From positions 1-64,000 of the IMG/VR virus record IMGVR_UViG_3300023223_001973: a DNA stretch of 64,000 bases. One strand, 5' to 3'. This stretch comes from a virus. This document shows positions 114 to 28,819 of this stretch, one piece after another; positions within the stretch are counted from its first letter, which is position 1; every line of letters starts with the position of its first letter. The notes beneath the pieces are model-generated. The model did not search any database. It was not told the origin of the DNA and saw nothing but the letters and a program-made list of their open reading frames with translations. Made by a program: the position numbers and the translations under genes.

Positions 114-896
114 GTGACCCCTGTGCATGAGCGTTGGAAGAATACAGGCCTTGTTGACAAGTATGTCGTCTCTAAGAAGGACGGCTCACCTGTCGCAGAG
201 GATGCTGAGTACTTCGTTCTCCGACTGGATGAGGCTTGCAAGGACCATAGGCATGTGATTGCGTGCCGTGCTGCGGCCTTCCTGTATGCTTCTATGATCC
301 GACAGCATCTTCCCTTGCTGTCCTCTGATATCATCCAGAAGATCAAGGTTCTGACTAAGGAACATTCAGAGGTTAACTGGTCCTCTATCTCGCCTGCAGA
401 GGTCTACCTTGAAACTGGACGACCCTCCAGTATGACCCATGAGGAATGGCTGATTACCATTGTGAATATCAAGGTTGCTATTGATGCTATCCGACAGGTG
501 CAGATTGATCTTCTGTCTGGCTTTCGTGAGTTTGTTGAGAAGAAGTTGGAGCTGGTCAAGTCTAAGGGCGACCCGCCAAGTGCTCTTGCTGTTGAAGGGT
601 TGCTCAATGACATGATTCAAGAGGTGGATGACACTGGCGCAACCTTAGGCCTCTGCATCTCTGTTCATGGCAAAGCTCCAGAGAAGGACCCTCTGACTGA
701 TATCTTCGAGACTGAGGATAAGCTCATTGCGGCCATAGGGCCTGTTAACCTCATTGGACATCTTCAATCTCATTGTTTGGCAACTGCTGATCATCCCACT
801 GAAGAGACCAAAGCTGAGACTGAGAAGTGGGAACGGACTGCCAAGATGTTGTATGAGGTTCACAACCAGTTGAAGGAGATCTGGGACCCTAGCTGA
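114..896 (+). CDS. Hypothetical phage protein
   Basis: 260-aa ORF with GGAG RBS; its stop TGA is the first three bases of the TGAACCT promoter box. Confidence 0.7.
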   Translation: MTPVHERWKNTGLVDKYVVSKKDGSPVAEDAEYFVLRLDEACKDHRHVIACRAAAFLYASMIRQHLPLLSSDIIQKIKVLTKEHSEVNWSSISPAEVYLETGRPSSMTHEEWLITIVNIKVAIDAIRQVQIDLLSGFREFVEKKLELVKSKGDPPSALAVEGLLNDMIQEVDDTGATLGLCISVHGKAPEKDPLTDIFETEDKLIAAIGPVNLIGHLQSHCLATADHPTEETKAETEKWERTAKMLYEVHNQLKEIWDPS

Positions 897-918
897 ACCT
901 AACACTCTCTTCTACGTA
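894..918 (+). promoter_or_regulatory. Phage ECF-type promoter TGAACCT-N14-CGTA
   Basis: TGAACCT 894-900, CGTA 915-918; same motif and spacing recur at seven other sites. Confidence 0.8.
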
Positions 919-955: not shown

Positions 956-1210
956 ATGGCATCAGTAAGAACCCAGGTTGCGGAAGCCGTTGCGGAGCGC
1001 ACATCGGACAACGGGAACTTCGAAGAGTACCGTTGCAAGTTCGATTGGGAGATCACGGACCAGCGTCTCCTGGCTCGTTTTATCGCGAAGGTGGAAGCTC
1101 ACGAACTGGAACCAAATCAGGTTCGTTGGTATGTGAAGCGCCTGAACTTCCGTAACGTCTTTATCCCAGACTCCGTTATTGACATGCTCCGCTCCGGCGT
1201 ATATGTCTAG
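956..1210 (+). CDS. Small hypothetical protein upstream of the RAMP gene
   Basis: 84 aa, AAGGAG RBS, first gene after the 894 promoter. Confidence 0.7.
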   Translation: MASVRTQVAEAVAERTSDNGNFEEYRCKFDWEITDQRLLARFIAKVEAHELEPNQVRWYVKRLNFRNVFIPDSVIDMLRSGVYV

Positions 1211-1239: not shown

Positions 1240-1992
1240 ATGACGTATACACAGCGGGACCTCGATAAGCTTATGTCTAAGCGTCGGGGTCGGGCAATCG
1301 TCAAGTGTCGTGCTGTCCGCAAGATTGCGGGTGGCCAGCCTGCCGGTGACAAGGCTCTTGCAGCCTTCGTCAAGTATCACCTCGACCTGGATCCGGAAAG
1401 CAACGAAGGTAAGTCCGCTATCGCTCGGATCAAGAACGAGGAGATTGGGGAGAGGGATACCGGTACTCCCGAAGGCGAGCTGGACAACAAGGAAGTGTAT
1501 CAGGTCAACGTCATTCGACGGAATATGAATGGTCCCTTCCTCCTGGAACACCAGATCAAGGCCATGCTGAAGCAGTCTGCCAGCCGCCTTGGCTACTTTG
1601 TCAAGAAGCGTGGCTCCAAGGGTGACATGGCTGAGCTGGGCACAGTCCGCGCTCATGGAACCAGTCTTCAGTTTGCTCTCCGTCCTTGGGAAATTCACTT
1701 GCGCAAGAACGGGCAAAGTGCTCCCACCTCATACGACCAGATCACCGGTTGTGTGAGCACCACTCAGGGCAAGAAGTCCATCATGCACCATACCGAAGTG
1801 GCGGATGAGGGCTCCGAGTTTGCCTTCGAGTTCGACTGGATTCCTGACAAGCTGGGCAAGAATGCCATGCTGGAGATCATTGCTGCTGCCACGCAGATCG
1901 GCATTGGTTCCTGTCAGAGCTTGGGCTACGGGAAGTTCGAGGTCGTGGAGCTGGATATTGACATGCCTGTTAAGGTTAAGAAGGAGGCATAA
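1240..1992 (+). CDS. Stand-alone Cas7/Csm3-like RAMP-superfamily protein
   Basis: C-terminal G-rich loop IGIGSCQSLGYGKFEV, central 'FLLEHQIKAMLKQSA' helix (cf. P..S.KG.lR), 'TEVADEGSEFAFEF' strand; AAGGAG RBS. No other cas genes in the window. Confidence 0.8.
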   Translation: MTYTQRDLDKLMSKRRGRAIVKCRAVRKIAGGQPAGDKALAAFVKYHLDLDPESNEGKSAIARIKNEEIGERDTGTPEGELDNKEVYQVNVIRRNMNGPFLLEHQIKAMLKQSASRLGYFVKKRGSKGDMAELGTVRAHGTSLQFALRPWEIHLRKNGQSAPTSYDQITGCVSTTQGKKSIMHHTEVADEGSEFAFEFDWIPDKLGKNAMLEIIAAATQIGIGSCQSLGYGKFEVVELDIDMPVKVKKEA

Positions 1993-2630
1993 CTCGACCT
2001 TACGAAGCACAGCGGCCATGCATCATTCCACCGCGCGAGACGAAGCGGCATTGCGTCACAAGACTTGACATATCATGACGAAGAGGCAAAGCAACATGAT
2101 GCATGGCGTAACTAAGCGGCATGACAGGATGTAACTTAACCCAACGTAGAGGCTTAACCAGTCCAAGCTGGTCGGTACTGAACTAAGCGGCTATACAATG
2201 CACGTCTTTACGAAGCGGCGGGACCAGATAAGTCGTGACACTACCCGACGGAGTGGCAGAGCCTTACTCGACATTACTTTACGGAGTGGCAATGCAAGGC
2301 TGAGCAGTGCCGAGCGGCAGGACATAGCTCTACGCTACCACACGCAGAGGCACTACTGAATCATGCCTGACATTGCTTAACAAAGCGGCAGGACGCTACT
2401 CCACACGACGAAGTGGCATGACGCGACTCCACAGGACATGGCGGCTCGACAAGACCGAGCACTATAAGGCTGAACTGGACGAAACAGAGTGGCCAAGCCT
2501 GATGAATCTGTGCGACACAAAGCGAAGTGGCAAGACGGGATGGTACGCCACCTAACTGAACGCAGCGGCAAGTCAAAACAGGACGATACATTGCTGAGAG
2601 GCGAGACAAAACGGGACATTACGCCGCGGC
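1989..2630 (+). repeat. Pentamer-periodic array: 19 units of (NNN-RC)n closed by NNAGH-GGC; putative guide-RNA array
   Basis: Parsed by hand without gaps: 117 pentamers plus 19 GGC trimers = 642 nt; unit lengths 28/33/38/48; the 98 internal pentamers end in AC (60), GC (23), AT (8) or TC (7). Confidence 0.92.
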
Positions 2631-2635
2631 ATAGC

Positions 2636-2660
2636 TGAACCTAAAGACCTCCTCTACGTA
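2636..2660 (+). promoter_or_regulatory. Phage ECF-type promoter
   Basis: TGAACCT 2636-2642, N14, CGTA 2657-2660, directly after the array. Confidence 0.8.
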
Positions 2661-2680: not shown

Positions 2681-3037
2681 ATGAGTAAGGTTGCTGACAA
2701 ACTCCGGGTTATCAAGATCTATAATGATCATGGGATCTCTGAGCCTGGCGGTGTTTACATCTCCCGTAGATCACGAGGTCCCTGGAAACCACCTGCTTGG
2801 ATAGTTCACATTCAAGGTAAGAGCTTCAAGACTGCTGGTCGTGAGGATAATGGTGGTAGGGCCTTTCGTATTGAGGGCCGTGGAGATGTGAAGGACTGTC
2901 TCGCGAGAGCTATTGATTGGTGTCAGCAGAACCTTGGGACGTATTACTTTGTGAAGTCACCTTTCGGTGGCGGAAACATGGTTCAGGAGTCCTTCCTCAA
3001 GAAGGCCATCAAGAAAGCTGATGATGTGCTTGCCTGA
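2681..3037 (+). CDS. Hypothetical protein
   Basis: 118 aa, GAGGAG RBS, downstream of promoter. Confidence 0.7.
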   Translation: MSKVADKLRVIKIYNDHGISEPGGVYISRRSRGPWKPPAWIVHIQGKSFKTAGREDNGGRAFRIEGRGDVKDCLARAIDWCQQNLGTYYFVKSPFGGGNMVQESFLKKAIKKADDVLA

Positions 3038-3168
3038 TGACCTTCCAACTCTGGCCCTTCCTCAGTGGGAACTGGAGATGCTTGAATTTCAGAAGAAGCT
3101 GAAAAAGGAAATGGATGCTTATTTCCGCTCTAAAATGATAGTTCCTGCTAAATACTTTGGAGGCCCTT

Positions 3169-3672
3169 ATGAAAGTAGTCGATCTGTTAGAACTGATCAA
3201 GGACGTGGACCTGGAGGCAGAGGTCCCGAGCGAGATCATCGACAAACTGACCCAGGTACCTGATGGCTCACCGCCTCGCCCTGTCCGTGGTAAGCTTCCC
3301 AACCGTCGCAATGGAATAACCCAGAAGGTATCTGTTGCTCAGCAGACAGTCTATCTCCGATCTGGACTGTATGAAGATGGTTCTCTGGGTGAGATATTCA
3401 TTGACATGTCCAGACAGGGTGCTGGTTATCGTTCCATTATGGGCTGCTTTGCTATCGCGGTAAGTCTTGGTTTGCAGCATGGTGTACCGCTTGAACGCTT
3501 TGTTAATGCTTTTGTATGGACAAGATTCGATCCGCAAGGCCAAGTTGCTGGCCATCCTTCTATAAAACACTGTACGTCAGTGGTGGACTATATCTTTAGA
3601 GACTTGGCTTATCACCATCTTGGTGATGAGGATATGGCTAAGTATGATCCTAAGGAGCACTCTTACCTATAA
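3169..3672 (+). CDS. Stand-alone class II ribonucleotide reductase (NrdJ) C-terminal TSCPD-like domain
   Basis: [14 protein letters not shown]...[14 protein letters not shown]...[15 protein letters not shown]...[11 protein letters not shown]; GGAGG RBS before ATG 3169. Confidence 0.8.
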
Positions 3673-4720: not shown

Positions 4721-5070
4721 GGGGGTGAATTGGATTCGACTGGCTGTATGAGCTATCGTGCTGCGTGTCGTGGTTGGTCGGTTGGCCACGTTAAAAGCCG
4801 TCCAAAAGCTTATCTGCGGAATATACCGCACGTCTGCGCTTGGTCTCCGGACCACGTGCCGTCGCTGCCTGAGCGATGTACCCAAGAAGGCACTTCGTCA
4901 AGGTGTCCCGCTGAAGACGGTTTTAGTTGGTGGGAGGACAGGTGGGGAAAGACCCACTGCCGAACCTGCGTCACGAGGGCCGGGCAATAAACGGAAACAG
5001 TGACTATGCATGTAGACGCCGGTAGTTTGGCAGTTCCAGCACGTGGGTTCGACTCCCACCACCTCCACCA
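4721..5070 (+). ncRNA. ssrA: tmRNA; tag reading frame AEYTARLRLVSGPRAVAA* (4816-4872)
   Basis: 5' GGGGGTGAATTGGATTCGAC; 3' T-arm GTGGGTTCGACTCCCAC then CACCTCC-ACCA; acceptor stem with G3.U Ala determinant; internal ORF ends in AVAA. Confidence 0.95.
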
Positions 5071-5175: not shown

Positions 5176-5250
5176 TGACCTGTAGCTCAATGGTAGAGCG
5201 CCTGGCTGTTAACCAGGAAGTTGGAGGTTCGAGCCCTCCCGGGTCAGCCA
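5176..5250 (+). tRNA. tRNA-Asn (GTT)
   Basis: TGACCTG/CGGGTCA acceptor stem, D-arm AGCTCAATGGTAGAGC, anticodon arm CCTGG-CTGTTAA-CCAGG, GGTTCGAG, encoded CCA. Confidence 0.95.
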
Positions 5251-6326: not shown

Positions 6327-7200
6327 GGGGTGTATTATTATCGTTCAGGTGCCTACCGGGATTGGAGACTTCTCTTGGGTCTATAGCAAACTTGCTTCTC
6401 TTGAGATTCCAGTGACAATAGAGGTCTGTGCCGGAGGACCTGCTCGCCTTCAACCTATAGCTGAGCTGCTTCCTCGCATTGAGAGGATGTATACTGGAAA
6501 TATAGGTTATGGTGAGCTAGCTGTGAAGCAGCTGCCTGCCGAGACAACTCGTGCTCAGTTGATGGCCTGGCCCGCAGGTGCACCTATTCCACTCTCATGC
6601 AATACCCACCTGGAGAATGGTAATCGTGTGGAGACCTGGCTCCCAGATATTCCTACCTATCACCATTACCCTGTTCTAGTCTCTCAGCAGGACATTGACC
6701 AGGCCAAGGCTCTTGTTCCCTTCAAGGACTATGTCTGTATCTATGCCTCAAGTAAGGCTACTTGTGCTACCTGGACGGGGTGGATGGGTCCTCAGTGGGT
6801 CGAGTTTATGAATCTATTCCGGGATAAGATAGCACCTATGAGCTTTGTTCTGATTGGTGCACAATGGGATGTGGATCTTGGAGTAGAGGTTCAACAGTGT
6901 GCTGCTGTTGCTCAGATACCCTTTGTTAATCTAGTGAACCTAACCAGGTTGGGTACTGCCTTAAAGATTATCAAGAACTCTCATTATATGGTGTCATTCC
7001 CGTCTGGGATGGGCATTATGTCTCATGTTATTCGTCAGCCCTGCACAATGTTCTATCCTTCTCCTCTTGTCAAGATGCTTCGTACTTTTGTATCTCCAGA
7101 GTCAGCTGCTCTGAATAGGTTTCATGAGACTATTTTCTGCCCACCTGCAGAGCTTATACAATGGCTGCTTGATGTTTATAAGATTAAGGAGCATCTATGA
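6250..7200 (+). CDS. GT9-like (heptosyltransferase-fold) glycosyltransferase; true start probably near 6337
   Basis: IIVQVPTGIGD N-terminal motif; NLVNLTRLGTALKIIKNSHYMVSFPSGMGIMS C-terminal GT-B motif. Confidence 0.7.
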   Translation: MVGRIHQYPGDSSLTCIKTTLISCLRGCIIIVQVPTGIGDFSWVYSKLASLEIPVTIEVCAGGPARLQPIAELLPRIERMYTGNIGYGELAVKQLPAETTRAQLMAWPAGAPIPLSCNTHLENGNRVETWLPDIPTYHHYPVLVSQQDIDQAKALVPFKDYVCIYASSKATCATWTGWMGPQWVEFMNLFRDKIAPMSFVLIGAQWDVDLGVEVQQCAAVAQIPFVNLVNLTRLGTALKIIKNSHYMVSFPSGMGIMSHVIRQPCTMFYPSPLVKMLRTFVSPESAALNRFHETIFCPPAELIQWLLDVYKIKEHL

Positions 7201-8051
7201 GGCCTGACTGCGTGAAGGTAGGCTATGGTGATCCACAGCATGGAATTGCTCTTTCTGTAGTGGTCCTATTTTGTGACTTTGATGATGAACAGACGAGGGC
7301 CTCGGCAACTGCTTGCCTACTGTCTGTTCGCGAGACTGCCCCCGTGGATTGTGAGATCATCTGTGTACTGAATAACGTCTCGACTGAGCTTCTTGCCTTC
7401 GTGGAACATGCTGCTGATCGTGATGGTCGCATTGTATTGATTAATCTTAGTGTAAACTTGGGCGTGGTGGCTAAGAATCTGGGTTATGAGATTGCCCAAG
7501 GTAAGCTCATCTTCTCCATCGATGGTGACGTTCTAGTTAGGGATAGGAAGGCCTTTACTGATTGTGTTACCTTTATGGAGAGCCGTAGACATATTCATAC
7601 AGCTCTGATAGGTCCATGTGGTGGTATCTTGGACAAGGAACGATGGACTGATGAAGACTGGCCTATTGCTAAGTGGGAAGAGGGCTCTAATGCCTTTGGG
7701 TATGATGATCCTATCGACTTTGGTGGTGAGGTTGCTGATCTTCATGGCATGAAGGTAGATGCCATACCCAGCTTGTTCTGGTGCTTTCGCAAGGAGGTCA
7801 TGGAGGAGGTAGGATCTCTGGACTGGAGGTTTGGTCCCTTTGTAGGATCTGACTCTGATTTTTGCTTTCGTGTTAAGGAGGCAGGATACGATATATGCCT
7901 TGTGAGAGTTCCTATTACCCATTATGGAGGTGGTGCGAGTACGCACAAGGCCTTCAAGAAGGACATTGATTTCCTAAGGGGAAGTCATATCAAGCTGCTC
8001 TACGATCTGTGGTATGAGAAGTTTGATGTGATAAGTGAGGGAGGCAAATGA
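7197..8051 (+). CDS. GT2 family glycosyltransferase
   Basis: LSVVVL...EIICVLNNVS...NLGVVAKNLG...FSIDGD (DxD)...DSDFCFRVKEAGY. Confidence 0.85.
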   Translation: MRPDCVKVGYGDPQHGIALSVVVLFCDFDDEQTRASATACLLSVRETAPVDCEIICVLNNVSTELLAFVEHAADRDGRIVLINLSVNLGVVAKNLGYEIAQGKLIFSIDGDVLVRDRKAFTDCVTFMESRRHIHTALIGPCGGILDKERWTDEDWPIAKWEEGSNAFGYDDPIDFGGEVADLHGMKVDAIPSLFWCFRKEVMEEVGSLDWRFGPFVGSDSDFCFRVKEAGYDICLVRVPITHYGGGASTHKAFKKDIDFLRGSHIKLLYDLWYEKFDVISEGGK

Positions 8052-8493: not shown

Positions 8494-9927
8494 ATGAAAG
8501 TTCTATTTGTCGCTAAAGAGTTGAGGATGGACCCCCTCGGCATCATGTATCTCAGTGCCCAGCTCAAGCATGAAGGGCATGAGGTTGAGCTTGCCCGGAT
8601 GGATGACAAGAAGGCGTCGGGTCATGATGTGGTCAAGAGGTTCCAGCCCGACGTGCTAGCATATTCCATGTGCTCTGGTCTAGAGTGCTTCTATGAACAG
8701 TGGGATAAGGAGTTTCGTAAGCTGATCAACCATAGGGTTCGGAGCATGTGGGGTGGACCCGCGGTCACCTTTGATGTTGCCTTGAGGGCTCGTCTAAGTC
8801 AGGGCCCTGACAATATGGCCTTTGGTGGTGAGTGCGAGAAGTCATTTGCTGAATACTTGCGGACCTGGGAGGAGCCCAAGCCCAGTATCGTGGATCTTGA
8901 TGAGGTTCTCCCTCCTGATAGGGCTATCGCATATCAATTCGAGAGCCTGAGGAATAACCCCATCAAGAATGTTCTTACCCGCCGTGGTTGTCACTATGGC
9001 TGTTCCTACTGCTTCAATCGGGACTGGAACAAGATGTTCCGGAAGCAGCTCCCCAAGGGCATCTATCGGTACCACTCACCCGAACGCGTGGTTGAGGAGT
9101 GCCGGCAGGTCATGAAGGACTGGCCTGTGGAGATGTTCAACTTCGTGGATGACAACTATGCCTCATCTGAGGAATGGTTAGAGGAGTTTGCTCCTATCTA
9201 CAAGAAGGAGATAGGACTCCCCTTCTTCTGCTCCGTCCGTCCGGAGGATGCCCAGAAGAATGGTCCCATCATTCCTCTGATTAAGGCTGCTGGTGGCTGG
9301 ATCGTGAACATGGCCATTGAGTCCGCCAACAAGGAGAACCGGAAGCGTGTTCTCATCCGTGGTGGTAAGGGCCTCCAGCCTGTGATTGACACCATCAACG
9401 AAGTCCACAAGCACGGCATGGTCACTCGCCTGCAAAACATTGTTGGCCTGCCGGTAGAGGACCCGCTTGCTGACGCTTATGAGACTCTGGATTTCAACAT
9501 CATGGCCAAGCCTACCTCTTCATGGGCCGCTCTTCTTCAGCCTTATCGTGGGACCAAGGTCAACGAGATCGCTGAAGCAGGTGGCTTCCTGGCTGAGGAT
9601 CATGTTACCGATGAGGAGTTCTTCGGAAGGTCTGCGCTTAAGATTCGGGATAAGAGGAAGGTCGAGAGACTGCATAAGTTGTGGCCTCTGCTCACCTGCT
9701 ATCCCATCTTCCGGAAGATTGCACCTCTTCTGATCCGTATACCGCTGCCCTTCAGCTGGTTCACGTGGTTCTTCAAGTATACGAAGAAGCACTTCGCTGA
9801 ACGGGATCTGTGGGTTGTATGTCGTAAGAAGTCAGCTCGGGATGCCAACCTGCCCTTCCCTGTCAATTCTGCTCCGAATAAGAAAAAGATAGATGCTGAG
9901 GCACTTGAGACAGCATTGGATTGTTGA
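8494..9927 (+). CDS. B12-binding-domain radical SAM protein (class B methylase-like)
   Basis: PLGIMYLSAQLKHEGHEV cobalamin-domain start; TRRGCHYGCSYC (CX3CX2C); FVDDN; AIES. Confidence 0.9.
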   Translation: MKVLFVAKELRMDPLGIMYLSAQLKHEGHEVELARMDDKKASGHDVVKRFQPDVLAYSMCSGLECFYEQWDKEFRKLINHRVRSMWGGPAVTFDVALRARLSQGPDNMAFGGECEKSFAEYLRTWEEPKPSIVDLDEVLPPDRAIAYQFESLRNNPIKNVLTRRGCHYGCSYCFNRDWNKMFRKQLPKGIYRYHSPERVVEECRQVMKDWPVEMFNFVDDNYASSEEWLEEFAPIYKKEIGLPFFCSVRPEDAQKNGPIIPLIKAAGGWIVNMAIESANKENRKRVLIRGGKGLQPVIDTINEVHKHGMVTRLQNIVGLPVEDPLADAYETLDFNIMAKPTSSWAALLQPYRGTKVNEIAEAGGFLAEDHVTDEEFFGRSALKIRDKRKVERLHKLWPLLTCYPIFRKIAPLLIRIPLPFSWFTWFFKYTKKHFAERDLWVVCRKKSARDANLPFPVNSAPNKKKIDAEALETALDC

Positions 9928-15027: not shown

Positions 15028-15234
15028 ATGGCTCCTGAGTTGAAGGAAGAGACCTTTAATACTGGTGATGTTGTACGAGTCCGTGAAGGGGCTGTTCATA
15101 TCAAACCTCAGTTCCATAGTACTGAGGGTACTGTGATAAGATGGACCCATGATCACTGGTATATTGTGAATATAGCTTACTCAGTAACACTGTTACGAGC
15201 AAGCGAATTACAACTTGTACGTAGAGCAGGCTGA
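15028..15234 (+). CDS. Small KOW/SH3-like protein
   Basis: FNTGDVVRV...EGTVIR...WYIV...SELQLV; AAGGAGG RBS. Confidence 0.55.
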   Translation: MAPELKEETFNTGDVVRVREGAVHIKPQFHSTEGTVIRWTHDHWYIVNIAYSVTLLRASELQLVRRAG

Positions 15235-15256
15235 ACCTTAGCCTCTGCCTTACGTA
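15232..15256 (+). promoter_or_regulatory. Phage ECF-type promoter
   Basis: TGAACCT 15232-15238, CGTA 15253-15256. Confidence 0.8.
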
Positions 15257-27670: not shown

Positions 27671-28819
27671 ATGCCAGAGGCACCTAAGGTGTTTGATCCA
27701 TCATCGTTCTTCGGCGGACAGGCCGGAGCTGCTCCTCCTGCGACTCCCTCCGCGGCCCCAGTTGCTGCACCGGCACCCATTGCCGCTCCTGTAGCACCCA
27801 TACCGCAGACAGCCCCTGCTCCGGCAGCTAATGTAGCTCAACCGGGGTTTGGGGTCCCTGCGGCTCCTACTCCACCAGCTCCTGCGGTTCCGACTCCTGT
27901 AGCGGCCCCGGTGGCTGCTGTTCCTGCTACCCCAGCACCACCTGTTCCCGCAGCCCCAGTGGTACCTGCTGCCCCTGCTCAGGCAGTACCTGCTGCTGTT
28001 GCACCACCCCCGGTTGCGGCGGTACCTGTCGCTGCTGCCCCAGTTGTCGCCCCTGTTCAAGCTGCCCCAGTTGTCGCCCCTGTTCAAGCTGCCCCAGTTG
28101 TCGCTGCCGTACCCGCGGCTGCTGCTGATGCCCCCTCGTTTGCTAAGACCCATGCTATTACCTTTGGTGACAAGCTCTCCCGTTACCCTGTACCACGATT
28201 CCGGGGGATCAAGGGATTCACCAAGCGTATAGGCATCCTGAACGTGACTAAGTGGTATGCTGTTAAGACCCACTATGAGCAGGGGATTGGCTACTACTTC
28301 TGCTTTGGCACCGTCTGTTGTGAGTCTAACGATCCTTCAGTAAGGTACTTGGCTCCTATGGTGGCCTACGACACTGATAAGGATGGAAACATCGTATCCC
28401 CCAACTTCGAGATCCAGTACATGGCTCTCTCGGATCAGTACTATGACCATCTGCAGTTGATACACCGGAATTATCCTCTGGATGAGATAGATATGCTTGC
28501 CATGTGTGCTGATGAGACGTATCAGAAGATGGCTTACCAACCCGCTGGTGCTGCCTCTTGGAAGCAGAACGCTGAGTGGGGTAAGGCTATCGTGGAGAAG
28601 TACCAAGAGTTGGAGCCTAACATCATGCGTTGTCATGCTACTCGTTTGGGTAGAACCCCTGATGAGTGTGTCAAGGCTCTGGCTGCTCGTCGTAGCCGTG
28701 GTTCCAACCAGCCTACTCAGACGCAGCCTACTCCAACAGCCCAGGCTCCTGGTGTTGCTCAGTTTGATATGAACGCGTTCATGAATCAGCCGGGAGGCGA
28801 TGCAGCTAGGGGTCGGTAA
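27671..28819 (+). CDS. Putative single-stranded DNA-binding protein with long Pro/Ala-rich N-terminus
   Basis: HY...YYFCFGTVCC metal-site-like segment; sits before RuvC/RecA; ~155-aa PA-rich region. Confidence 0.55.
   Translation: MPEAPKVFDPSSFFGGQAGAAPPATPSAAPVAAPAPIAAPVAPIPQTAPAPAANVAQPGFGVPAAPTPPAPAVPTPVAAPVAAVPATPAPPVPAAPVVPAAPAQAVPAAVAPPPVAAVPVAAAPVVAPVQAAPVVAPVQAAPVVAAVPAAAADAPSFAKTHAITFGDKLSRYPVPRFRGIKGFTKRIGILNVTKWYAVKTHYEQGIGYYFCFGTVCCESNDPSVRYLAPMVAYDTDKDGNIVSPNFEIQYMALSDQYYDHLQLIHRNYPLDEIDMLAMCADETYQKMAYQPAGAASWKQNAEWGKAIVEKYQELEPNIMRCHATRLGRTPDECVKALAARRSRGSNQPTQTQPTPTAQAPGVAQFDMNAFMNQPGGDAARGR
28034..28104 (+). repeat. 27-nt coding tandem repeat (AAPVVAPVQ), 2.6 copies
   Basis: GCTGCCCCAGTTGTCGCCCCTGTTCAA twice plus a partial copy. 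Confidence 0.9.

What the first reader, a model, noticed from the sequence alone, without database searches (positions are those of the whole stretch)
1983..2640. Unit lengths are quantised at 5n+3 and the array is fused to its flanks
Seen: lengths are 28,33,38,33,33,38,28,38,33,28,33,38,28,28,48,38,38,33,28. The closing pentamer has AG at positions 3-4 in 17/19 units and G4 in 19/19, always followed by GGC. The first GGC (1986-1988) lies in the RAMP gene's last codons, the first pentamer contains its stop codon, and two extra pentamers (atagc tgaac) run into the next promoter's -35 box. Inference: the 3-nt register break marks a processing or filament-termination site without needing Cas6; the array is co-transcribed with the gene; units evolve by whole-pentamer gain/loss rather than Cas1-type acquisition.
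Basis: partly seen in the sequence, partly recalled or inferred. Interest (0 to 1): 0.7.

Follow-up and report, generated by a model that had tools for sequence, protein, structure and literature searches.

The report
Phage VIPR guide array, AC-scaffold type
The odd five-base-periodic array is real and is the guide-RNA array of a VIPR system, a CRISPR-related, phage-borne RNA-guided DNA silencer first published in 2026; this copy belongs to a divergent branch that spells its repeats NNNAC instead of GGYNN and separates its short guides by a 3-base register break.

Summary
Window 1986-2630 holds 19 units bounded by GGC, with lengths 28/33/38/48, all 5n+3. Each unit is built of NNN[A/G][C/T] pentamers.

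The upstream 250-aa gene (1240-1992) folds as a Cas7-type RAMP: pLDDT 92, best matches Csm3/Cmr4, Z 11.7. It aligns remotely but collinearly with the Vipr protein of phage SUSP1 (hhalign E 4.5e-5).

In about 36 of 46 metagenomic relatives the same gene sits beside the same kind of array, always on the gene's strand. The array usually starts within a few bases of the preceding stop codon. Across the family, 260 of 348 delimiter spacings are 5n+3. Small indels between homologous arrays are 5 or 10 nt. Unit-block gain/loss and about 10% one-base slips also occur.

This is a VIPR system (bioRxiv 10.64898/2026.04.26.720920 and companions), so the kind is already known. This scan also met VIPR loci before, in at least 12 other genomes.

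Three things differ from the characterised type II:
- the scaffold is nAC rather than GGY;
- guides are short (4-11 repeats) and have no tail;
- the delimiter AGC·GGC is two scaffold triplets with the variable NN left out.

Targets and the pairing rule could not be determined. RNA ends could not be tested.

The parts
894..918 (+). Promoter-like motif TGAAC-N14-TACGTA upstream of the module (orf84, vipr, array)
   Evidence: Three + strand copies in the window (894, 2636, 15232) against 0.02 expected. Each lies about 20-40 nt upstream of an RBS and ATG. Promoter function is inferred.
956..1210 (+). 84-aa ORF immediately upstream of the RAMP gene; a possible lineage-specific accessory gene of unknown function
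   Evidence: No Pfam or PHROG hit. Only one homolog among 5.8 billion proteins. Absent from the other family loci. The model has low confidence, pLDDT 59, and is all-helical.
1240..1992 (+). vipr-like gene: 250-aa single-RRM Cas7-type RAMP with a C-terminal glycine-rich loop (IGIGSCQSLGYGKFEVV)
   Evidence: AlphaFold model pLDDT 92, pTM 0.83. Foldseek top hits are Cmr4, Csm3 and type VII Cas7, E 4e-8 to 1e-6. VIA-align Z 11.7, and ranks 1-28 are all CRISPR RAMPs. hhalign against the SUSP1 Vipr family gives E 4.5e-5 over 155 columns, with the G-loop aligned. 52 close homologs, and 522 at E<=1e-3 in 1.84 billion representatives.
1986..2630 (+). Array of 19 guide-like units bounded by 20 GGC delimiters. 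Each unit reads GGC-(NNN[A/G][C/T])n, with a closing pentamer NNAGN before the next GGC
   Evidence: No structure and no Rfam family.
2631..2640 (+). Two further in-register pentamers, ATAGC TGAAC, that overlap the start of the next promoter-like motif
2636..2660 (+). Second copy of the promoter-like motif, ahead of the next gene (2681-3037)

Best explanation
This is a VIPR (Viral Interference Programmable Repeat) locus of a divergent clade.

Transcription (inferred): one + strand transcript, probably starting at the motif at 894, carries orf84, the Cas7-like Vipr gene and, directly fused to its stop codon, 19 short guide units.

Register (shown from sequence): read in the register of the published system, each unit is 5'-GGC NN (nAC NN)k AGN-3' followed by the next GGC. 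The pentamer is a scaffold trinucleotide n-A/G-C/T plus two fully variable bases. The first scaffold base has become nearly free.

Mechanism (by analogy with the solved SUSP1 complex; not shown here): one Vipr protomer binds each pentamer. It flips out the A-C scaffold bases and presents the variable bases for gapped pairing with double-stranded DNA of a rival element, which silences it.

Delimiter: AGN·GGC is two scaffold trinucleotides with the intervening NN omitted. Successive units are therefore 3 nt out of register, which is why every unit is 5n+3. I infer that a filament cannot run on in phase across the junction. It would thus set the length of each ribonucleoprotein and mark where the transcript is cut, replacing the pseudoknot tail or hammerhead used by other VIPR types.

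Evolution (shown by comparison): units change by pentamer indels, duplication, block gain or loss, and replacement of units.

Targets and the exact pairing rule are unknown.
For: Protein:
- Cas7/RAMP fold at high confidence.
- Remote but collinear profile match to the bona fide Vipr of SUSP1, YP_009199429.1 (identity of that protein confirmed in 10.64898/2026.10.15.759431).
- The G-loop residues that read G1/G2/Y3 in SUSP1 (D177, W178, R179) are replaced in this family. That fits a different scaffold.

Gene-array association:
- 5-nt-periodic arrays lie next to the gene, on the gene's strand only, in about 36 of 46 metagenomic loci. They lie either downstream or upstream of the gene. None was found on the opposite strand.
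- In SUSP1 the YNNGG repeats are also on the gene's strand.

Family statistics:
- Logo: positions 1-3 carry <=0.1 bit, position 4 is A .77 / G .17, position 5 is C .85 / T .14.
- Position 3 has lineage-specific bias. This matches the GAC/NN and CAC/NN non-canonical VIPR motifs reported in 10.64898/2026.10.21.760802.
- 260 of 348 delimiter spacings are 5n+3.

Transcription strand:
- A + strand terminator follows the array in L040, and + strand promoters follow the arrays in L008, L009 and L016.
- Arrays begin right after same-strand stop codons.

Other:
- No RNA structure or known RNA family.
- Published VIPR biology and architecture.
Against: - No RNA or binding data exist for this clade.
- The canonical GGY/NN motif and the structured 3' tail are absent.
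- No conserved accessory (vap) gene was found.
- The profile match to the type II Vipr is only 68.7% probability.
- No target was found under any rule tried, so guide function is inferred from kinship alone. Searches covered the own genome, 320 kb of related loci and seven exact-pattern IMG/VR scans.
- Five to seven dinucleotides per guide would give low specificity, which leaves open whether the third variable base also pairs.
- A-C on one strand reads G-T on the other, so the motif alone does not fix the transcribed strand.
Confidence: 0.75

Rival explanations
1. Same VIPR system, but the array is transcribed from the opposite strand. The guides would then be the YNNNG repeats (G-T/C-N-N-N) that the VIPR discovery paper lists as an alternative repeat type, with GCCNCT as a 5' element.
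For: The reverse complement of NNN-A/G-C/T is G/A-Y-NNN. That is YNNNG, which one search lists as a described alternative. G-T is closer to the canonical G-G-T of SUSP1 than A-C is.
Against: - In every locus the C-strand is the gene's sense strand, as the G-strand is in SUSP1.
- Arrays abut the preceding stop codon and are followed by + strand promoters or, in L040, a + strand terminator. No minus-strand promoter or terminator signals were seen.
- The semi-constrained position is p3, where the G1 equivalent falls in the + strand register, in 15 of 21 loci. This last point is weak.
Confidence: 0.13
2. The array makes a non-targeting RNA. It could be a scaffold, or a decoy or sponge that titrates Vipr proteins (its own or a rival's). 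The variable bases would then be free filler and not guides.
For: Positions 1-3 are near-random in composition. No target was found. Decoy solo vrRNAs are documented in satellites (10.64898/2026.10.15.759431).
Against: - Homologous units are conserved between diverged arrays at 78-96% identity while their neighbours are replaced. Filler would not behave so.
- Unit content is unique rather than repeated.
- The published relatives are programmable guides.
Confidence: 0.08
3. A DNA-level element, such as an array of protein-binding sites (iterons, a centromere or a packaging signal) with half-turn spacing, unrelated to RNA.
For: A 5-bp period is half a helical turn, and the motif is strand-symmetric in type (R-Y).
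Against: Orientation relative to a RAMP (RNA-binding) gene is strict in about 36 loci. The register breaks by 3 nt every 23-53 nt, which destroys helical phasing. The array is embedded in operons between a stop codon and the next RBS.
Confidence: 0.03

Closest known systems
Type II VIPR of Escherichia phage SUSP1 / Pseudomonas fulva prophage (Vipr + vap1 + vrRNAs; bioRxiv 10.64898/2026.04.26.720920 and 10.64898/2026.04.26.720927)
   Same: - Phage-borne.
- A small single-RRM RAMP with G-loop and thumb.
- 5-nt tandem-repeat RNA genes on the gene's strand, upstream or downstream of it.
- No cas genes and no CRISPR array.
- Variable bases alternate with fixed scaffold bases.
   Different: - The protein is 250 aa against 195, and only remotely alignable (E 4.5e-5).
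- The scaffold is n-A/G-C/T rather than G-G-Y, and the G-reading residues D177/W178/R179 are not conserved.
- Guides have 4-11 repeats against 9-16.
- There is no ~40-nt pseudoknot tail; a 6-nt AGN·GGC junction stands in its place.
- There are 19 abutting units rather than four separate ~100-nt genes.
- No conserved vap gene was found.
- The pairing rule has not been established.
VIPR 'staggered arrays with overlapping vrRNAs' and alternative repeats NNNGG/YNNNG/NNNNG (same paper, Fig. S17/S18 legends and methods); non-canonical GAC/NN and CAC/NN VIPR-like clusters (bioRxiv 10.64898/2026.10.21.760802)
   Same: Guides are tail-less and abut directly, so that the end of one marks the start of the next. 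The pentamer consensus is non-GGY, and a Vipr-like fold is encoded alongside.
   Different: Only the legends and text are held, not the figures or tables. I therefore could not verify that this family, its AGC·GGC junction or the 5n+3 rule are what those papers show. Here the third scaffold position is nearly free (NNNAC), where those papers report a fixed GAC or CAC.
Class 1 CRISPR Cas7 backbone filaments (type III Csm3/Cmr4, type IV Csf2, type VII Cas7)
   Same: These are the best structural matches to the protein (Z 10-11.7). In the known systems one RAMP protomer binds each short RNA period and flips bases at fixed intervals.
   Different: CRISPR has a 6-nt period with no base identity required at the flipped position. 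It has long repeats cut by Cas6 or Cas5, spacers acquired by Cas1-Cas2, and multi-protein effectors. None of these is present here.

Membership tests
VIPR system | Vipr protein: small stand-alone RAMP (RRM core, glycine-rich loop, thumb) outside a CRISPR-Cas context | tested here: met
   Model pLDDT 92. Foldseek and VIA-align top hits are all Cas7-type RAMPs. The C-terminal G-loop is conserved in 37 relatives. No CRISPR-like repeat was found in 64 kb.
VIPR system | Sequence homology of the protein to an experimentally characterised Vipr (SUSP1 YP_009199429.1) | tested here: inconclusive
   Family-to-family hhalign: probability 68.7%, E 4.5e-5, 155 collinear columns from helix 1 to the G-loop. 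Against the single sequence, E 0.0099. tblastn against phage records found nothing.
VIPR system | Tandem 5-nt repeat RNA gene(s) next to vipr, on its strand, with fixed scaffold bases alternating with hypervariable bases | tested here: met
   Window array. About 36 of 46 related loci. Logo. SUSP1 orientation control.
VIPR system | Canonical GGY/NN (YNNGG) repeat | tested here: not met
   The repeat is NNN-A/G-C/T. GGC occurs only once per unit, as the delimiter. The literature accepts 'a related consensus' and GAC/NN or CAC/NN variants.
VIPR system (type II architecture) | Invariant structured 3' tail (pseudoknot) after each repeat tract | tested here: not met
   Units abut with only AGN·GGC between them. 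Fold z-scores are -1.2 and -1.0, and there is no Rfam hit.
VIPR system | Accessory vap gene in the operon | tested here: inconclusive
   No neighbouring gene family is shared across the loci. The 84-aa ORF in the same operon has a single homolog and a low-confidence model. The discovery paper also reports stand-alone vipr genes.
VIPR system | vrRNA expressed, bound by Vipr, and directing gapped-code DNA binding or silencing | not testable with these tools
Target searches under 0-3-nt skip rules found nothing above controls.
CRISPR-Cas | Array of identical direct repeats (about 23-50 nt) separated by unique spacers, with cas1/cas2 or effector cas genes | tested here: not met
   The only conserved element between units is 6 nt. 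TRF finds no such array. Neighbouring ORFs have no Cas domains. No neighbour is conserved.

The most novel reading that the evidence does not exclude
The AC-scaffold clade uses a pairing geometry different from the published one. Only two bases per pentamer (A-C) would be sequestered, and three consecutive guide bases would pair. That would be a step between VIPR's 2-nt segments and the 5-nt segments of CRISPR Cas7 filaments. The AGN·GGC junction would be a self-contained filament stop and cleavage mark that lets one transcript yield 19 short, tail-less guides with no ribozyme, Cas6 or pseudoknot. A weak hint: joined as contiguous triplets, the window's guides contain exact sigma-70 -35 or -10 hexamers 3 times against 0.39 expected (P 0.0075, post hoc). 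That would point at promoters as targets.
Probability: 0.2. Interest if true: 0.7.

Novelty: new variant of a known kind. Interest (0 to 1): 0.42.

Why it matters
VIPR was published only in 2026 as an RNA-guided DNA-binding system with a non-contiguous code and as a candidate ancestor of CRISPR backbones.

A clade that keeps the 5-nt period but changes the scaffold bases would show how much of the code is plastic. This one also loosens one scaffold position, drops the tail and packs many short guides head to tail with a fixed 3-nt register shift.

It gives a natural test case for two questions: how filament length is set, and how arrays are processed without dedicated nucleases.

The family is almost entirely metagenomic, with one MAG hit among 185,579 reference genomes. 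A survey based on NCBI nr and contigs of 20 kb or more could therefore easily miss it.

If the third variable base pairs, that would bear on the evolutionary path from VIPR to Cas7, and on the design of compact programmable repressors.

Tried and rejected
1. Self-targeting. Each of the 19 units was scanned against the whole 99.7-kb genome, with 3 or 4 variable bases per pentamer and 0-3 skipped bases. Results were no better than shuffles.

2. 159 family units were scanned against 320 kb of related loci under eight rules. Nothing exceeded controls, apart from unmasked array copies at period 5.

3. IMG/VR exact-pattern scans gave no convincing target.
- Two 20-22-position NNx patterns: 0 hits.
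- A 16-position core: 5 hits with chance-level third-base agreement.
- Window unit 12 as NNx: 120+ hits with a binomial third-base distribution and a best of 19/20.
- Window unit 15 as NNx: 0 hits.
- Two contiguous 20-mers: 0 hits.

4. Codon reading of the triplets. In-frame stop codons looked depleted. However, all frames are depleted, and the effect is explained by TA-dinucleotide depletion. Rejected as evidence for coding targets.

5. Junction dinucleotide statistics, tried as a way to infer the skip rule, were too weak to use.

6. Substitution rates at positions 1-3 between homologous units show no clear difference.

7. The TAGCTGAAC motif seen after the gene in L002 is probably a coincidence.

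8. A borderline pentamer run on the minus strand at 95678-95732 of the genome, outside the window, lies inside a 475-codon open frame. It is probably chance.

9. The 84-aa ORF got nothing useful from Pfam, PHROGs, the Atlas or folding.

Full report
**The observation**

Window 1986-2630 is a chain of 19 units, each beginning with GGC. Nearly every pentamer is NNN-A/G-C/T: in the window, position 5 is C 91% / T 9% and position 4 is A 65% / G 26%.

The closing pentamer is NNAGN in 17 of 19 units, and position 4 is G in all 19. GGC 1986-1988 overlaps the last two sense codons of ORF 1240-1992, and the first pentamer ATAAC contains its TAA stop.

After the last GGC, ATAGC TGAAC stay in register. 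TGAAC starts a motif, TGAAC-N14-TACGTA, that occurs three times in the window (894, 2636, 15232). All three are on the + strand and each lies just ahead of an RBS and start codon; 0.02 were expected by chance.

The array is unique in the 99.7-kb viral record. It scores 159 on a pentamer-chain detector, against 11.2 for the shuffled genome.

**The gene**

ORF 1240-1992 has no Pfam or PHROG match and no relative among 50,697 phage records. It does have 52 close metagenomic homologs, and 522 at E<=1e-3 among 1.84 billion representatives.

Folded with a 37-sequence alignment, the model has pLDDT 92 and pTM 0.83. Foldseek and an independent all-against-all structural search both put Cas7-family RAMPs on top: Cmr4, Csm3, gRAMP, type VII Cas7 and type IV Csf2. 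Scores reach E 4e-8 and Z 11.7.

**The association**

I fetched related loci from IMG/VR (3), JGI/ENA metagenomes (46) and GTDB genomes (1, an Elusimicrobiota MAG). The same detector finds arrays in about 36 of the 46 metagenomic loci. They are always on the gene's strand and never on the other. About two thirds lie directly downstream of the gene and one third directly upstream. Most loci without an array are contigs that end near the gene.

Nothing else is conserved around the gene. The 84-aa ORF that shares the window's operon has a single homolog.

**Family-wide anatomy**

The following comes from 250 distinct units in 35 loci.
- Positions 1-3 of the pentamer carry at most 0.1 bit each.
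- Position 4 is A .77 / G .17, and position 5 is C .85 / T .14.
- Units hold 3-11 pentamers, with a mode of 6.

Independently of any pentamer model, I measured distances between successive AGNGGC motifs. They are 3 mod 5 in 260 of 348 cases. Most of the remainder are double units (1 mod 5) or belong to a 5n+4 class. The 5n+4 units carry one extra base inside the unit, conserved between sister arrays.

Position 3 is slightly constrained, with a bias that differs between lineages: G in L005 and L038, C in L045 and L009.

The array has no significant secondary structure on either strand (z -1.2 and -1.0) and no Rfam match.

**How the arrays change**

L005 and L010 share units at 78% identity and differ by 5-nt gaps. 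L012 and L016 differ by two 10-nt gaps. Within L005, two sister units differ by two pentamers.

L024 and L026 differ by a 307-nt block of units. L043 and L046 share their first nine units exactly and then carry different units.

So pentamer gain and loss is real. It is accompanied by unit duplication, block indels, unit replacement and occasional 1-nt slips.

**What it is**

A literature search found that this kind of system was published in 2026 as VIPR.
- VIPR is a phage-borne stand-alone RAMP (Vipr) with RNAs made of 5-nt tandem repeats, canonically YNNGG.
- The GGY scaffold is sequestered by the protein, and the NN bases pair with double-stranded DNA while skipping every third target base.
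- One protomer binds one repeat in a helical filament.
- A later preprint reports 21 VIPR-like clusters with non-canonical motifs, including GAC/NN and CAC/NN, each next to a Vipr-like fold.

I fetched SUSP1. Its YNNGG repeats are on the same strand as vipr. I built a 33-sequence alignment of its Vipr family and compared the two family profiles. The result is E 4.5e-5, probability 68.7%, over 155 collinear columns from RRM helix 1 to the G-loop.

In SUSP1, D177, W178 and R179 read G1, G2 and Y3. These residues are replaced in the present family. I take that as consistent with its different scaffold bases.

**Register and delimiter**

In the published register, scaffold triplet then NN, the present repeat reads (n)(A/G)(C/T)-NN. 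The delimiter then reads AGC·GGC: two scaffold triplets with the NN between them left out. Each unit is therefore GGC NN (nAC NN)k AGN, with length 5(k+1)+3. This accounts for the quantisation by itself.

At array starts, some loci have only GGC directly after the stop codon (window, L012, L016). Array ends keep the full AGC·GGC. GGC is thus needed on both sides of every unit.

That the junction stops filament growth or directs cleavage is an inference from the one-protomer-per-pentamer structure. It has not been tested.

**Strand**

A-C reads G-T on the other strand, so the motif cannot decide which strand is transcribed. The context favours the gene's strand.
- Arrays begin at or within about 15 nt of the stop codon of the preceding same-strand ORF, in both arrangements.
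- L040 has a -14 kcal/mol hairpin plus T6 on the + strand, 10 nt after its array.
- L008, L009 and L016 have sigma-70-like + strand promoters just after theirs. The L008 one is TTGACA-N17-TATAAT.
- No minus-strand signals were seen.
- The window's array is followed at once by the + strand promoter-like motif.

I put the + strand at about 85%.

**Targets**

None was found. The searches are listed under Tried and rejected. The pairing rule for this clade (NN with one skip, or NNN with 0-2 skips) stays open.

An apparent depletion of stop codons in the triplets turned out to be TA-dinucleotide depletion.

Joined as contiguous triplets, the window's guides contain exact TTGACA or TATAAT hexamers 3 times against 0.39 expected (P 0.0075). 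The idea was formed after looking at the data and gained no support from database scans. I treat it as a lead only.

**Earlier notes of this scan**

Other agents have already reported VIPR loci in at least 12 other genomes. They include C-rich arrays and a "contiguous-code" clade. I used these as leads for which rules to try, and none of their claims is relied on here. A sibling note on this same array suggested promoter-spelling guides. I tested it as described above.

**Verdict**

The finding is real, strongly non-random and conserved. It is a member of a kind published in 2026, not a new kind.

It differs from the characterised type II system in five ways:
- the nAC scaffold;
- the nearly free third scaffold position;
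- short tail-less guides;
- the AGC·GGC register-break delimiter, with the resulting 5n+3 rule;
- the lack of a conserved accessory gene.

Parts of this are probably covered by the papers' "staggered arrays" and "GAC/NN, CAC/NN" remarks. I could not check their figures or tables.

**Limits**

No RNA evidence could be obtained. The closest relatives could not be fetched.

Noticed in passing
window 4721-5070 and 5176-5247: The phage encodes a tmRNA (Rfam 108.7 bits, E 1e-42) and a tRNA (72 bits) about 2 kb downstream of the VIPR module.
   Followed up: partly
window 894-918, 2636-2660, 15232-15256: A phage-specific promoter-like motif, TGAAC-N14-TACGTA, occurs three times. All copies are on the + strand and each is just ahead of an RBS and ATG. 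Two of them bracket the orf84-vipr-array module, so the module looks like one cassette between two copies of the same signal.
   Followed up: partly
window 3157-3672: A 171-aa ORF has a TSCPD domain (E 1e-8) and a weak match to the C-terminal part of the ribonucleotide reductase large subunit (phrog_84). It is a stand-alone fragment-sized gene.
   Followed up: no
window 28034-28104: A perfect 27-nt tandem repeat of 2.6 copies (TRF score 142) is the strongest simple repeat in the window. It is in frame (27 = 9 codons), so it is probably a repeat in a protein.
   Followed up: no
window 7197-8051 and 8494-9927: A GT2 glycosyltransferase and a B12-binding radical SAM enzyme lie in a run of tightly packed + strand genes. 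Other first-reader notes on this window describe this as a glycan-modification cluster.
   Followed up: no
L004 / L035 (IMGVR_UViG_3300031576_000004, 163 kb), gene at L004 4001-4744: This homolog (39% identity) has no pentamer array within 4-5 kb on either side and is followed by a cluster of tRNA genes. Either its array is elsewhere on the contig or the gene is solo.
   Followed up: no
L043 1390-1722 vs L046 5740-6540; L024 vs L026: Sister arrays share their gene-proximal units exactly and then diverge completely. Another pair differs by a 307-nt block of units. Turnover is thus polarised or cassette-like, reminiscent of CRISPR arrays although no acquisition genes are present.
   Followed up: partly
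L040 1939-1975: A strong intrinsic terminator (CCCCGGAGCAATCCGGGG + T6, -14.1 kcal/mol) lies 10 nt after the last delimiter of that array, on the array's strand.
   Followed up: yes
window 3098-3154: A weak fluoride-riboswitch-like match (18.8 bits against a gathering score of 34, E 0.1). It is most likely chance.
   Followed up: no
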